The notes beneath the pieces were generated by a model that was given only the letters and a program-made list of their open reading frames with translations, ran no database searches and was not told the DNA's origin. From Alphaproteobacteria bacterium (GTDB taxonomy: Bacteria; Pseudomonadota; Alphaproteobacteria; UBA7879; UBA5542), in contig JBAWWO010000001.1 of NCBI GenBank assembly GCA_037146715.1, positions 6,433-70,432 on the forward strand: DNA of 64,000 bases, read 5' to 3'. The position numbers and the translations under genes were made by a program. Of the stretch, positions 17,489 to 19,135 are shown in pieces. The first letter of the stretch is position 1. The number at the start of each line of letters is the position of its first letter.

Positions 17489-17701
17489 CTATTTTTTTCC
17501 CCTAAGACTTACAGTGCGCGCAATTTCTTTACTGATTTGCTTAGATAACTTTTCCATTTCTTTTTTAAGATCCTCGGAGGGTTCTTTTGCAGAGTCTATT
17601 TGACGATGTTTTCTTGGAGAGACTGTGTTTTCTTCTTGAGGGGAAGCGTAAGAACTAAAACTTATAAGGGCGATCAGGACTGTTCCTAATTTAAATTTCA
17701 A
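17489..17701 (-). CDS. hypothetical small secreted Lys-rich protein
   Basis: 70 aa with a signal peptide. ATGA start/stop overlap with the upstream HAD phosphatase gene suggests translational coupling. Confidence 0.4.
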   Translation of the reverse strand: MKFKLGTVLIALISFSSYASPQEENTVSPRKHRQIDSAKEPSEDLKKEMEKLSKQISKEIARTVSLRGKK

Positions 17702-18261
17702 TTCTGGTTTTCTCCTAAAATAAAAGCAGCAGCAGCTTTTAGATTAGCATGCACAGCAACAGGAGTGTAGTTCTTAAATTCTTCATGAACAGCTGTTTTG
17801 GTCCCGTGGCCTGTTAAGACCAGGTGGGCGGCGCATCCTGCGGCGCGGGCGGCTTTTAGATCGCGAATATCATCGCCAATCATCAGGGTTTCTGAGGGAG
17901 TGACGTCCAGGTCTGACATGGCCTCAAGCAGCATGCCCGCATTGGGTTTTCGGCGATGGGTCGGAAAATCAGGGTGGTCAGGACACACATATATTTTATG
18001 CAGATTAATGTGATGCTGTTTCAAATTTTTTATCAAATGTTGATGAATTTCTTCCAGCTGATCCATCGTAATCAGGTTGCGGCCAATGCACCCCTGGTTT
18101 GTGATAATAGCGAGCTTGATCCCCGCGTCCGACAGCTGTTTTATGGCTTGGATGCTGTCAGGGATGAAGTTAAATTCTTCCACAGATTTTACATATCCAG
18201 TGCGTTCTTCGTTAATCACGCCATCTCGGTCGAGTAGGATCAGTTTGGGAAGTGTCATCAA
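17698..18261 (-). CDS. gmhB: HAD-IIIA phosphatase, D,D-heptose 1,7-bisphosphate phosphatase-like
   Basis: LILLDRDGVIN, ITNQ.G, CPDHP....RKPNAGM, GDD..D..AA.AAG are the HAD motifs I-IV in the GmhB arrangement. 187 aa. Confidence 0.7.
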   Translation of the reverse strand: MMTLPKLILLDRDGVINEERTGYVKSVEEFNFIPDSIQAIKQLSDAGIKLAIITNQGCIGRNLITMDQLEEIHQHLIKNLKQHHINLHKIYVCPDHPDFPTHRRKPNAGMLLEAMSDLDVTPSETLMIGDDIRDLKAARAAGCAAHLVLTGHGTKTAVHEEFKNYTPVAVHANLKAAAAFILGENQN

Positions 18262-18268
18262 CAGCTCA

Positions 18269-19135
18269 CTATTTTATGGAGGTCAAGCTGTTGAAGGGAA
18301 GAAGTTCTGGCTTAGATGCGCGATATTTTTCGTATCTATCCACAAATTTCTCAAAGGCCTCTTTGTTCATTATATTTAGGCCATCTTTACGATCCCAGTT
18401 ACCCCATTGTACTGACCCTTTGTTGAAGTCATCAGTCCAAAAGAATTTAATCGTATCCGCGTATTTAAAATATACAGGCATTCTTTCATAAAAAGCCTTT
18501 GCTTTTTCCACGGCGTCTTCTGGGGTTGATTGGTAGAATGTTTTTTCCCTATTCGCTATATAGGCAATGCGATTTTCATCTGTAGTATCGCACAATAATA
18601 GCTCAATTCTATAGCTCTCAGTCTTAAGTTTCTCGTATAACTTCCCTATATGAGGGGATGTGGATGTTGTGCCATGGGCAATGTTGAGCTTGTGTTCAAA
18701 GGCCACATTTAAAATATTATTTGCAATGTAATTTGATCCTCCCCGCCATTTTTCATAAGCAACTTTTAAATATTCGGGGCTTTGGCTTTGGGCATGGGGA
18801 CCCGTTGCGGGAATATACGTATTGACCATATAGCGAAGACCATAGGCGTCAGGATCTGCGCGCACATAGTTATCATCGGATAGATAATTCTCAAGAATCG
18901 TTGATTTCATGGATCCCGGTCCCCCAGCAGTTGCTAGGTAAATAGGTTTGGGAGAGGCCTTTTTTCCCTCTAAGAAAATGCTAGAAATAATATGCTGATC
19001 TGCTTGAATCGCAGTCAATTCTTCGGGTGAATATTTAGCAATCCAACCGTCAGTGACCTCACTGGGGATTAGAGTGGCTGCTTGAGCGTTAAAGACACCT
19101 ATGGATAAAAGAAAAATTTTGAAAAACGATTTCAT
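18269..19135 (-). CDS. secreted zeta-toxin-like/AAA_33-like P-loop kinase-fold protein with degenerate Walker A
   Basis: Signal peptide MKSFFKIFLLSIGVFNAQA. PIYLATAGGPGSMKST resembles the zeta-toxin P-loop (GQPGAGKST), but the Gly preceding the Lys is replaced by Met. D-P-D..R and N.IA..IL motifs follow, as in the zeta/UNAG-kinase fold. A 7-nt gap to the gmhB-like gene suggests an operon. Confidence 0.45.
   Translation of the reverse strand: MKSFFKIFLLSIGVFNAQAATLIPSEVTDGWIAKYSPEELTAIQADQHIISSIFLEGKKASPKPIYLATAGGPGSMKSTILENYLSDDNYVRADPDAYGLRYMVNTYIPATGPHAQSQSPEYLKVAYEKWRGGSNYIANNILNVAFEHKLNIAHGTTSTSPHIGKLYEKLKTESYRIELLLCDTTDENRIAYIANREKTFYQSTPEDAVEKAKAFYERMPVYFKYADTIKFFWTDDFNKGSVQWGNWDRKDGLNIMNKEAFEKFVDRYEKYRASKPELLPFNSLTSIK

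What the first reader, a model, noticed from the sequence alone, without database searches (positions are those of the whole stretch)
17489..19135. Operon of a signal-peptide-bearing zeta-toxin-like P-loop kinase (degenerate Walker A), a GmhB-like HAD phosphatase and a small secreted protein
The 288-aa protein has a Sec signal peptide followed by a zeta-toxin/AAA_33-like kinase core (P-loop region, D-P-D..R motif, N.IA..IL core). The Walker A reads GGPGSMKST, with Met in place of the canonical Gly before the Lys. This suggests altered nucleotide handling or a pseudokinase. Known zeta toxins are cytoplasmic UNAG kinases, so a secreted version is unusual. It is separated by 7 nt from a GmhB-type sugar-bisphosphate phosphatase. 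That gene overlaps by ATGA a 70-aa secreted Lys-rich protein. A kinase/phosphatase pair acting on a sugar-nucleotide or heptose substrate in the envelope, or a secreted effector plus a housekeeping gmhB, are both possible.
Basis: partly seen in the sequence, partly recalled or inferred. Interest (0 to 1): 0.6.

Follow-up and report, generated by a model that had tools for sequence, protein, structure and literature searches.

The report
Exported zeta-toxin-like kinase of endosymbionts
An intracellular bacterium encodes a zeta-toxin-shaped kinase with an export signal; it belongs to an unstudied family found almost only in bacteria labelled as cell-dwelling lineages, and its neighbouring sugar phosphatase gene looks like an unrelated housekeeping gene.

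Summary
The three minus-strand ORFs are real. They are annotated in NCBI as a zeta toxin family protein, a HAD-IIIA hydrolase and a hypothetical protein.

**Kinase (288 aa).**
- It passes the Pfam Zeta_toxin threshold.
- It has an N-terminal Sec-type signal (AQA|A).

**Walker A change.** The Gly-to-Met change is not private and is not evidence of a pseudokinase. Across 235 relatives that position varies freely (G, R, S, C, A, I, M). The Walker Lys and Ser/Thr, the DPD catalytic base and the lid Arg are conserved in about 97%.

**The family.** It has at least 230 clusters at 50% identity. All genome hits are MAGs, mostly labelled Chlamydiae, Holosporaceae/Finniella or Coxiellaceae. Most members carry signal or lipoprotein peptides. 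None of the 82 loci examined has an antitoxin-like neighbour. There are no plasmid or phage matches. The UDP-binding Arg of the zeta GTxR motif is missing.

**Neighbours.** The kinase/GmhB pairing is not conserved (0 of 82 loci). GmhB has no signal peptide, so it sits in a different compartment. The 70-aa ORF is an orphan.

**Best reading.** This is a stand-alone exported small-molecule kinase, probably fed by host ATP. The substrate is unknown.

The parts
18269..19135 (-). Gene for a 288-aa exported kinase with the zeta/PezT/AvrRxo1 fold (NCBI MEI8320414.1, 'zeta toxin family protein')
19079..19135 (-). Codons 1-19: Sec-type signal peptide MKSFFKIFLLSIGVFNAQA, with a predicted SPase I site AQA|A
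   Evidence: Read from the sequence. Low pLDDT (54-63) for residues 1-20. A hydrophobic N-terminal segment occurs in 104 of 111 close homologues and in 160 of 204 broader representatives with a long enough N-terminus. Lipoboxes occupy the same place in about 10 members. No dedicated signal-peptide predictor was available.
18899..18928 (-). Walker A / P-loop, residues 70-79 (AGGPGSMKST), with Met76 at the canonical Gly position
   Evidence: In 235 relatives K77 is kept in 230, S/T78 in 233 and T79 in 211. Position 76 reads G 81, R 76, S 28, C 18, A 11, I 5, with the rest scattered.
18848..18856 (-). D94-P-D96. By profile alignment D96 aligns with the catalytic base Asp66 of PezT, which is Asp67 of zeta
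   Evidence: Profile-to-PezT alignment. D94 kept in 227 of 235 and D96 in 231 of 235. The role of Asp67/Asp66 is taken from PMC3062530.
18659..18676 (-). H154-G-T-T-S-T159, the counterpart of the zeta E116-G-T-x-R120-T121 substrate motif. The Thr118 and Thr121 equivalents are kept. The UDP-phosphate-binding Arg120 is replaced by Ser
   Evidence: Alignment. Conservation: G155 229, T156 199, T157 230; position 158 reads S/L/A/M with 2 Lys among the counts shown and no Arg among the six commonest residues; T159 210. Zeta contacts come from PMC3062530.
17698..18258 (-). gmhB-like HAD-IIIA phosphatase gene (186 aa from ATG; NCBI MEI8320413.1). No signal peptide, so cytoplasmic
   Evidence: NCBIfam PRK08942 174.5 bits against a cut-off of 178; hisB_Nterm 62 bits against 140. 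Best PDB hits are GmhB 4pnh and 3l8h. HAD motifs DRDGV, TNQ, RKP and GDDIRD are visible in the sequence. Homologues are widely named D-glycero-D-manno-heptose 1,7-bisphosphate phosphatase.
17489..17701 (-). 70-aa orphan ORF (TTG start, TTGA overlap with the gmhB stop). Lys-rich with a signal-like N-terminus. Unverified as a gene
   Evidence: AGGAG lies 10 nt upstream of the TTG. It is called by NCBI as the hypothetical protein MEI8320412.1. The only hit among 5.8 billion clusters is the ORF itself. It is absent next to the 72%-identical gmhB relatives.
3702..5222 (+). Context: a TLC-type ATP/ADP translocase gene, the kind of transporter obligate intracellular bacteria use to import host ATP
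   Evidence: Pfam TLC 486 bits, E 1.7e-145.

Best explanation
The 288-aa gene encodes a catalytically competent small-molecule kinase with the zeta-toxin/AvrRxo1 fold. A cleavable signal peptide sends it across the inner membrane through Sec.

It belongs to a distinct, uncharacterised subfamily. That subfamily is stand-alone (no antitoxin, no conserved neighbour) and chromosomal. All genome hits are MAGs, mostly labelled Chlamydiae, Holosporaceae/Finniella or Coxiellaceae, with single Babeliales and Francisellaceae hits.

**Shown here**
- the fold
- the export-type N-termini across the family
- conservation of the Walker Lys and Ser/Thr, the Asp base and the lid Arg
- loss of the UDP-clamping Arg of the zeta GTxR motif
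- free variation at the last Walker A glycine
- the lack of any conserved link to gmhB

**Inferred**
- These bacteria sit in host cytoplasm or vacuoles, and this genome imports host ATP with a TLC translocase. Host ATP should therefore reach the periplasm or the surrounding compartment.
- There the enzyme would transfer the gamma-phosphate of ATP to a hydroxyl of a phosphate-bearing metabolite, such as a nucleotide, dinucleotide or nucleotide sugar.
- The purpose would be either to manipulate the host's pool or to trap and convert host metabolites for uptake.

gmhB downstream is a cytoplasmic housekeeping phosphatase that happens to share the transcription unit in this lineage. The 70-aa ORF is an unverified orphan.
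For: **Fold**
- Pfam Zeta_toxin scores above the gathering threshold.

**Active site**
- The profile alignment to PezT maps K77 to K45, D96 to D66 and R196 to R157.
- In 235 relatives K77 is kept in 230, S/T78 in 233, D96 in 231, R131 in 229 and R196 in 227.

**Export**
- The window protein has an AQA|A signal.
- A hydrophobic N-terminal segment occurs in 104 of 111 close homologues and in 160 of 204 broader ones.
- About 10 members carry lipoprotein lipoboxes at the same place, a second and independent kind of export signal.

**Not a toxin-antitoxin module**
- No conserved neighbour exists among 82 loci. The largest flanking-gene cluster covers 11 loci and looks like MutL.
- tblastn finds no matches in 72,556 plasmids or 50,697 phages.

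**Lineage pattern**
- All 76 genome loci are MAGs. 28 are labelled Chlamydiae. Others are labelled Holosporaceae, Finniella, Coxiellaceae, Francisellaceae, Babeliales or Silvanigrellaceae.
- The window itself encodes a TLC ATP/ADP translocase. One chlamydial locus (L038) has a TLC gene directly upstream of the kinase gene.

**Hints that the substrate is nucleotide-like**
- The zeta Thr118 and Thr121 equivalents are kept. In zeta, Thr118 contacts the beta-phosphate of UNAG.
- One signal-peptide-bearing member is fused to an AAA_28 domain, which I recall as the NadR-type kinase family.
- The characterised relatives with this fold phosphorylate UDP-sugars or NAD (PMC3062530, PMC5923241).

**Precedent**
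- Shigella PhoN2 apyrase is a periplasmic ATP-consuming enzyme in an intracellular bacterium (PMC5613738).

**gmhB is unlinked**
Against: - No activity, localisation or expression data exist. Every family member found is from a metagenome-assembled genome.
- The signal peptide was judged by hand and by a hydrophobicity heuristic, not by a trained predictor.
- The residue aligned with zeta Glu116, which I recall as needed for zeta toxicity, is His, Tyr or Phe here. The missing Walker Gly is rare in active P-loop kinases. Catalysis or the phosphate donor may therefore differ from what I assume.
- The mapping to PezT residues rests on a weak profile alignment (E 0.016), although it agrees with the fold match.
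- The host-associated distribution is inferred from MAG labels, not from demonstrated lifestyles. Several MAGs are labelled only 'Alphaproteobacteria' or 'uncultured bacterium'.
- The substrate class is a guess.
- The 7-10 nt spacing to gmhB means co-transcription, and hence some functional link, cannot be excluded for this organism.
Confidence: 0.6

Rival explanations
1. The kinase and GmhB form a functional pair. Together they would act on a heptose phosphate or sugar-nucleotide substrate of the envelope pathway.
For: The genes lie 7-10 nt apart on the same strand with no predicted terminator between them. Zeta-type kinases act on nucleotide sugars. GmhB acts on heptose bisphosphate, as indicated by family assignment.
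Against: None of 82 kinase loci has a GmhB homologue within about 4 kb. The two closest GmhB relatives (72% identity) overlap xseA and have no kinase within 7 kb. The kinase carries an export signal, while GmhB starts its catalytic DxD at residue 11 and has none, so the two should be in different compartments. No other heptose-pathway gene was seen among the window ORFs that were scanned.
Confidence: 0.05
2. It is a pseudokinase or nucleotide-binding protein. The loss of the Walker A glycine, and of the Glu116 and Arg120 equivalents, would have abolished catalysis. The exported protein would then act as a binding protein or scaffold for ATP or another phosphorylated ligand.
For: Met76 replaces the canonical Gly. 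Across the family this position is any of G, R, S, C, A, I or M. The zeta Glu116 equivalent is His, Tyr or Phe, and the Arg120 equivalent is Ser, Leu, Ala or Met. By textbook knowledge the periplasm normally lacks ATP.
Against: The residues that carry out phosphotransfer in zeta and PezT are kept in 96-99% of 235 diverged sequences: the Walker Lys, the Walker Ser/Thr, the Asp base and the lid Arg. That level of conservation is not expected for a dead enzyme. About a third of the broader family still has the canonical Gly, and the other motifs are unchanged in those members.
Confidence: 0.15
3. It is a classical zeta/PezT-type toxin of a toxin-antitoxin or plasmid-maintenance module. It would phosphorylate UDP-GlcNAc in the cytoplasm, and its antitoxin has simply been missed.
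For: Pfam and NCBI both label it zeta toxin family. The best structural matches are zeta and PezT. Orphan zeta toxins are reported in a review (PMC10532202).
Against: It has an export signal. No conserved upstream small gene appears in 82 loci. The upstream 350 nt of the window holds only REP-like hairpins. There are no plasmid or phage matches. The Arg of the GTxR motif that clamps the UDP phosphates is absent. Sequence similarity to PezT is marginal (E 0.016 with a profile, nothing with the single sequence).
Confidence: 0.04
4. The hydrophobic N-terminus is an uncleaved membrane anchor or an annotation artefact, and the kinase domain works in the cytoplasm.
For: No trained signal-peptide predictor was run. 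About 30-40 broader family members start right at the conserved 'IP..V' motif with no hydrophobic segment. A cytoplasmic form of the fold therefore exists.
Against: Lys residues precede the hydrophobic core and a small-x-small site (AQA|A) follows it. That topology puts the C-terminal domain outside. Lipoboxes occur at the same position in about 10 members. The hydrophobic segment is only about 10-12 residues long, typical of signal peptides and short for a transmembrane helix.
Confidence: 0.08

Closest known systems
Zeta / PezT toxins (epsilon-zeta and PezAT type II toxin-antitoxin systems; Pfam PF06414)
   Different: This protein has a Sec signal peptide. It has no epsilon/PezA antitoxin or any conserved neighbour, and it is chromosomal with no plasmid matches. 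The Walker A Gly is not conserved. The Arg120 (UDP phosphate clamp) and Glu116 equivalents are replaced. Sequence identity is only 13-17%. The distribution is dominated by MAGs labelled as intracellular lineages rather than Firmicutes or plasmids.
AvrRxo1 (Xanthomonas type III effector; NAD 3'-kinase; paired with the Arc1/AvrRxo1-ORF2 antitoxin-chaperone)
   Different: AvrRxo1 is delivered by type III secretion and has an adjacent antitoxin/chaperone gene. Here export uses a Sec signal and there is no partner gene. No sequence-level match to AvrRxo1 was obtained. NAD as the substrate is untested.
GmhB (D-glycero-D-manno-heptose 1,7-bisphosphate 7-phosphatase; HAD-IIIA) - applies to the second gene only
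   Same: The best NCBIfam and PDB matches are GmhB. All four HAD motifs are present, and the size is typical at about 185 aa.
   Different: The score is 3.5 bits below the NCBIfam equivalog cut-off. The Zn-binding C-x-H...C-x-C loop of E. coli-type GmhB reads C-P-D-H-P-D-F-P-T-H-R. NCBI names the protein only 'HAD-IIIA family hydrolase'.
Shigella PhoN2 apyrase (a periplasmic ATP-diphosphohydrolase of an intracellular pathogen)
   Same: It is a precedent for a Sec-exported enzyme that uses ATP in the periplasm of a bacterium living inside host cytoplasm (PMC5613738).
   Different: The fold and chemistry are unrelated. PhoN2 is an acid-phosphatase-type hydrolase, not a P-loop kinase.

Membership tests
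Zeta/PezT toxin family (UNAG kinases of type II TA systems) | Zeta-type P-loop phosphotransferase fold | tested here: met
Zeta/PezT toxin family (UNAG kinases of type II TA systems) | Canonical Walker A GxxxxGK[ST] | tested here: not met
   The motif reads GGPGSMKST. The second Gly is Met here and is Gly in only 81 of 235 relatives. Lys and Ser/Thr are kept.
Zeta/PezT toxin family (UNAG kinases of type II TA systems) | Catalytic Asp (zeta Asp67 / PezT Asp66) and lid Arg (PezT Arg157) | tested here: met
   D96 and R196 align with them in the profile alignment. They are conserved in 231 and 227 of 235 relatives. The alignment itself is weak (E 0.016).
Zeta/PezT toxin family (UNAG kinases of type II TA systems) | GTxR substrate motif, with Arg120 binding the UDP phosphates of UNAG | tested here: not met
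   The motif reads H-G-T-T-S-T. The Arg position is S, L, A or M across the family. Zeta contacts are from PMC3062530.
Zeta/PezT toxin family (UNAG kinases of type II TA systems) | Adjacent cognate antitoxin gene (epsilon or PezA) | tested here: not met
   No conserved flanking ORF appears in 82 loci. The upstream 350 nt of the window is non-coding and REP-like.
Zeta/PezT toxin family (UNAG kinases of type II TA systems) | Cytoplasmic location and UDP-GlcNAc 3'-kinase activity | not testable with these tools
   The signal peptide argues against a cytoplasmic location. Activity needs an assay.
AvrRxo1-type effector kinases | Zeta-like kinase fold | tested here: met
AvrRxo1-type effector kinases | Adjacent Arc1/ORF2 chaperone-antitoxin gene and type III secretion | tested here: not met
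   There is no conserved neighbour. Export is by a Sec-type signal instead.
AvrRxo1-type effector kinases | NAD/NAAD 3'-kinase activity | not testable with these tools
   This needs an in vitro or in vivo metabolite assay.
GmhB (heptose 1,7-bisphosphate phosphatase) - second gene | HAD-IIIA core with motifs I-IV, and best similarity to GmhB rather than HisB-N | tested here: met
   DRDGV, TNQ, RKP and GDDIRD are present. PRK08942 scores 174.5 bits against hisB_Nterm 62 bits. PDB GmhB hits reach 3.9e-29 against HisB 1.4e-8.
GmhB (heptose 1,7-bisphosphate phosphatase) - second gene | Score at or above the NCBIfam equivalog cut-off | tested here: inconclusive
   174.5 bits against a cut-off of 178.
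GmhB (heptose 1,7-bisphosphate phosphatase) - second gene | Presence of the rest of the heptose pathway (gmhA, hldE/hddA, heptosyltransferases) in the genome | not tested
   Only 64 kb is available. The window ORFs that were scanned include Wzy_C-like and PMT_2-like envelope genes but no heptose-pathway gene.

The most novel reading that the evidence does not exclude
Bacteria that live bathed in host ATP run ATP-dependent phosphotransfer outside their own cytoplasm. On this reading, the family is a periplasmic or surface P-loop kinase powered by host ATP. It would phosphorylate a host-derived nucleotide-type metabolite, either to trap or convert it for uptake by nucleotide transporters or to deplete it in the host. 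The family has spread by horizontal transfer among unrelated lineages. The relaxed Walker A glycine would then reflect adaptation to millimolar host ATP or to a different donor.
Probability: 0.3. Interest if true: 0.8.

Novelty: new variant of a known kind. Interest (0 to 1): 0.55.

Why it matters
Zeta-fold kinases are known in three settings: as cytoplasmic suicide toxins held in check by antitoxins, as a type III-injected NAD kinase, and as predicted domains of T4SS effectors.

A large, conserved, antitoxin-free clade with Sec or lipoprotein export signals would be a fourth way of using this fold. The genome hits carrying it are mostly labelled Chlamydiae, Holosporaceae/Finniella or Coxiellaceae, with single Babeliales and Francisellaceae hits.

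If the enzyme works in the periplasm, it challenges the working rule that no ATP-dependent chemistry happens there. It would tie that exception to energy parasitism, since this genome carries a TLC translocase.

If instead it acts on the host, it is a widespread and untested effector candidate shared by environmental chlamydiae and alphaproteobacterial symbionts.

In either case it gives a defined protein family, a set of point mutants (K77, D96, position 76) and a short list of candidate substrates. Together these make the question directly testable.

The gmhB part of the finding and the small ORF are ordinary.

Tried and rejected
**Conserved kinase-gmhB linkage.** tblastn of GmhB, the 70-aa ORF, the 417-aa downstream protein and the M23 peptidase against 82 homologue loci found no hit at all. 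Clustering all flanking ORFs found no shared neighbour; the largest cluster covers 11 loci and looks like MutL.

**Synteny of gmhB in close relatives.** gmhB follows xseA there, not a kinase.

**Direct sequence link to solved structures.** The single sequence found nothing. The profile gave only PezT at E 0.016.

**Structured RNA or terminator in the 350-nt upstream spacer.** There is no Rfam hit and no credible terminator or promoter above shuffled expectation. The GC-rich hairpins are a short repeated REP-like element.

**Defence-system libraries.** PADLOC gave nothing meaningful.

**Plasmid or phage origin.** No tblastn matches.

**Homologues of the 70-aa ORF.** None were found.

**Literature.** Four searches found no description of this family or of Sec-exported zeta kinases: zeta toxin with signal peptide or endosymbiont, with Chlamydiae, and with Legionella effector, plus AvrRxo1 homologs.

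**AlphaFold-database fold search.** It was meant to find named relatives in cultured organisms, but the library was unavailable.

**Sequence variation.** The only other contig carrying the locus is 100% identical, so no dN/dS test of the small ORF was possible.

**ADP-heptose idea.** I considered that the kinase modifies ADP-heptose, suggested by the gmhB neighbour. I set it aside because the neighbourhood is not conserved.

**Gly76 and export.** Non-Gly at position 76 correlates with having a signal peptide: 133 with versus 21 without for non-Gly, against 27 versus 54 for Gly. I do not build on this. The two traits mark the same clade, so the counts are phylogenetically non-independent.
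Full report
**1. What is in the sequence**

Three ORFs lie head to tail on the minus strand:
- 18269..19135 (288 aa, ATG start)
- 17698..18261 (187 aa from a TTG; 186 aa from the ATG at 18258)
- 17489..17701 (70 aa, TTG start)

The spacer between the first stop and gmhB is 7 nt for the TTG start and 10 nt for the ATG start. 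NCBI and an independent Logan assembly both use the ATG start.

NCBI annotates the three as a 'zeta toxin family protein' (MEI8320414.1), a 'HAD-IIIA family hydrolase' (MEI8320413.1) and a 'hypothetical protein' (MEI8320412.1). They sit on a 177-kb contig of an alphaproteobacterial MAG.

The window has 42.8% G+C and encodes a TLC ATP/ADP translocase at 3702..5222 (Pfam 486 bits). That transporter is the hallmark of bacteria that import ATP from a host cell.

**2. The 288-aa protein has the zeta/AvrRxo1 fold**

- Pfam Zeta_toxin scores 29.3 bits, above the gathering score of 22.3. AAA_33 is below its threshold, and NCBIfam has no model for the protein.
- The single sequence finds nothing in the PDB. 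A 32-sequence profile finds PezT at E 0.016.
- An AlphaFold2 model built on that alignment is confident (pLDDT 90.4, pTM 0.87). Only the first 20 residues are poorly ordered.
- Foldseek gives the same three at E 4e-9 to 6e-7, then nothing better than 2e-4.

**3. The active site is kept, the Walker glycine is not, and the UNAG clamp is gone**

The profile-to-PezT alignment gives this mapping:

| This protein | PezT / zeta equivalent | Role in zeta (PMC3062530, unless noted) |
|---|---|---|
| K77 | PezT K45 | Walker A Lys |
| D94-P-D96 | PezT D64-G-D66 | Asp66 (zeta Asp67) is the base that deprotonates the substrate hydroxyl |
| H154-G-T-T-S-T159 | E-G-T-x-R-T | Thr118 binds the UNAG beta-phosphate; Arg120 clamps the UDP phosphates |
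| R196 | PezT R157 | lid Arg |

In an alignment of 235 family representatives, the catalytic residues are almost invariant:
- K77 in 230
- S/T78 in 233
- D94 in 227 and D96 in 231
- R131 in 229 and S134 in 232
- G155 in 229 and T157 in 230
- R196 in 227 and K211 in 230

Three positions differ from zeta:
- **Position 76**, the canonical last glycine of GxxxxGK[ST], is the most variable residue of the loop: G 81, R 76, S 28, C 18, A 11, I 5, plus a few M. Among the 120 closest homologues, Arg is commonest (62) and Gly is rare (6).
- **The Arg120 equivalent** is S, L, A or M. Arg is not among the six commonest residues there.
- **The Glu116 equivalent** is H, Y or F.

The Met is therefore real but is one state of a family-wide relaxed position. 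The pattern is strong purifying selection on the phosphotransfer residues together with drift at one glycine. That argues for an active enzyme with altered nucleotide handling, not a pseudokinase. The substrate is probably not bound in the way zeta binds UNAG. The retained Thr118 and Thr121 equivalents, and the invariant W-R-x-x-S-N motif, suggest that the substrate still carries phosphate.

**4. The export signal is a family trait**

- The window protein begins MKSFFKIFLLSIGVFNAQA|ATL. Two Lys residues are followed by a 9-10 residue hydrophobic core and then a small-x-small site.
- In the 32-sequence alignment nearly every member has such a segment.
- Using a hydrophobicity heuristic, 104 of 111 close homologues with a complete N-terminus have one.
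- In the broader set, 160 of 204 do.
- About 10 members carry a lipoprotein lipobox instead, for example FLTAC|E, LVGC|A and MISC|K. This is a second, independent type of export signal at the same place.
- A more distant sub-clade starts directly at the conserved 'IP..V' motif and has no signal. That sub-clade mostly keeps the canonical Gly.
- Non-Gly at position 76 correlates with a signal: 133 with versus 21 without for non-Gly, against 27 versus 54 for Gly. The two traits mark the same clade, so I treat this as an observation and not a test.
- No trained signal-peptide predictor was available.

**5. Family size, distribution and context**

- A profile search of 1.84 billion cluster representatives finds 637 proteins at E<=1e-3, 380 at <=1e-10 and 230 at <=1e-30.
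- A scan of one genome per GTDB species returned 76 loci, all MAGs:
  - 28 labelled Chlamydiae (Parachlamydiales, Rhabdochlamydiaceae, Simkania)
  - 13 labelled Alphaproteobacteria, including Holosporaceae and Ca. Finniella
  - 9 labelled Gammaproteobacteria, including Coxiellaceae and Francisellaceae
  - 4 labelled Verrucomicrobia
  - one each labelled Babeliales and Silvanigrellaceae
  - the rest unclassified
- By general knowledge, Chlamydiae, Holosporaceae/Finniella, Coxiellaceae and Babeliales are intracellular associates of protists. The lifestyles of these particular MAGs are inferred from their labels.
- There is no tblastn match in 72,556 plasmids or 50,697 phages.
- Gene neighbourhoods differ from locus to locus. 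Clustering all flanking ORFs of 80 loci gives no shared neighbour, and the largest group covers 11 loci. There is therefore no antitoxin and no conserved operon partner.
- Two fusions are informative:
  - One has a signal peptide, then an AAA_28 domain, then this domain. I recall AAA_28 as the NadR-type kinase family.
  - The other joins this domain to a DUF1796 papain-like domain.
- One chlamydial locus has a TLC translocase gene directly upstream.

**6. The gmhB-like gene**

- It carries all four HAD motifs.
- It scores 174.5 bits on the GmhB equivalog PRK08942 (cut-off 178), against 62 bits on HisB-N.
- Its best solved relatives are GmhB 4pnh (3.9e-29) and 3l8h (1.2e-27), against HisB at 1.4e-8.
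- The Zn-binding Cys/His loop of E. coli-type GmhB is altered to CPDHPDFPTHR. The 72%-identical relatives show the same kind of change.
- There is no signal peptide, because the catalytic DRDG starts at residue 11.
- In its two closest relatives, gmhB overlaps the end of xseA and no zeta-like gene lies within 7 kb.
- Conversely, none of the 82 kinase loci has a GmhB homologue in its flanks.
- The adjacency is specific to this lineage and the two products are predicted to sit in different compartments. A kinase/phosphatase couple is therefore unlikely.

**7. The 70-aa ORF**

It has an AGGAG 10 nt upstream of its TTG start, a signal-like N-terminus and 11 Lys residues. Its only match among 5.8 billion protein clusters is itself. 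It is absent beside the related gmhB genes. The only other contig carrying it is identical, so no substitution pattern can be read. Whether it is a real gene stays open.

**8. How it most likely works**

*Shown:* the gene encodes an exported, antitoxin-free, catalytically conserved zeta-fold kinase. Its family's genome hits are dominated by lineages labelled as intracellular.

*Inferred:*
- After Sec export and signal cleavage, the enzyme sits in the periplasm. It is membrane-tethered in the lipoprotein members, or it may be released further.
- Host ATP should be available in that space. The bacterium lives inside a host and itself imports ATP from the same space through a TLC carrier.
- The enzyme would transfer phosphate to a hydroxyl of a phosphate-bearing small molecule.
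- The characterised relatives with this fold phosphorylate UDP-sugars (zeta, PezT, ng_zeta1) or NAD (AvrRxo1). The AAA_28 fusion points the same way. I therefore favour a nucleotide, dinucleotide or nucleotide-sugar substrate.

I cannot tell whether the purpose is host manipulation (AvrRxo1-like) or conversion of host metabolites for uptake.

A periplasmic ATP-using enzyme in an intracellular bacterium has a precedent in the Shigella apyrase PhoN2 (PMC5613738). Secreted zeta-domain proteins have precedents in AvrRxo1 and in predicted T4SS effectors (PMC6536674). I found no description of Sec-exported ones.

**9. Verdict**

The fold and export interpretations hold. The pseudokinase and kinase/phosphatase-pair ideas do not.

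The gene is a member of an uncharacterised, exported variant of the zeta/AvrRxo1 kinase kind. That is moderately interesting and directly testable. The gmhB gene is ordinary and the small ORF is unverified.

All functional statements beyond fold, motifs, signals and distribution are inference.

Noticed in passing
window 19308-19326, 19383-19402, 774-792, 718-736, 11110-11128: A short GC-rich hairpin, CCTCGGG-N5-CCCGAGG, recurs in intergenic regions, including the 350-nt spacer upstream of the kinase gene. It looks like a REP-type repeat. It has no Rfam match and is not followed by a T-run.
   Followed up: partly
window 3702-5222 (+): A TLC-type ATP/ADP translocase gene (Pfam 486 bits). It marks the organism as an energy parasite of a host cell.
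   Followed up: yes
window 11230-13320 (-): A three-gene cluster: a DUF2282 small membrane or secreted protein, a MbnB/TglH/ChrH (DUF692) RiPP-modification-type enzyme, and DUF2063. This resembles methanobactin-like or copper-related peptide operons, which is unexpected in a reduced symbiont genome.
   Followed up: no
window 16101-17354 (-), 23353-24990 (+), 28382-29188 (-), 31762-34251 (+): Several proteins with signal-like N-termini have no Pfam family. The 417-aa one directly downstream of the small ORF contains an (EQ)n repeat. They may be lineage-specific secreted or effector proteins.
   Followed up: partly
protein P0250 (locus L086 5001-6422) and protein P0322: Two fusions of the exported kinase domain. 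P0250 has a signal peptide, then an AAA_28 domain (which I recall as NadR-like kinases), then the kinase domain. P0322 has the kinase domain followed by a DUF1796 papain-like peptidase. The P0250 locus also holds an LRR protein, a UPRTase and an MFS transporter.
   Followed up: partly
alignment of 235 family members: Loss of the last Walker A glycine goes with having an export signal: 133 of 154 non-Gly members have one, against 27 of 81 Gly members. The two traits track the same clade, so a tree-aware test is needed.
   Followed up: partly
window 17950-17990 (GmhB residues about 92-105); also L084 and L085: The GmhB-like protein and its 72%-identical relatives replace the C-x-H...C-x-C zinc loop of E. 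coli-type GmhB with CPDHPD[FH]PTHRRKP. The loop is His-rich and may bind metal in a different way.
   Followed up: no
locus L087 4001-4912: A signal-less relative of the kinase (P0285) is inserted between the sucA-like and sucB-like 2-oxoglutarate dehydrogenase genes of another MAG, again with no antitoxin-like neighbour.
   Followed up: no
window 22114-23265 (-): An AAA_14 + DUF4143 ATPase gene lies between the gpmI-M23 peptidase genes and a gene for an orphan protein with a signal-like N-terminus.
   Followed up: no
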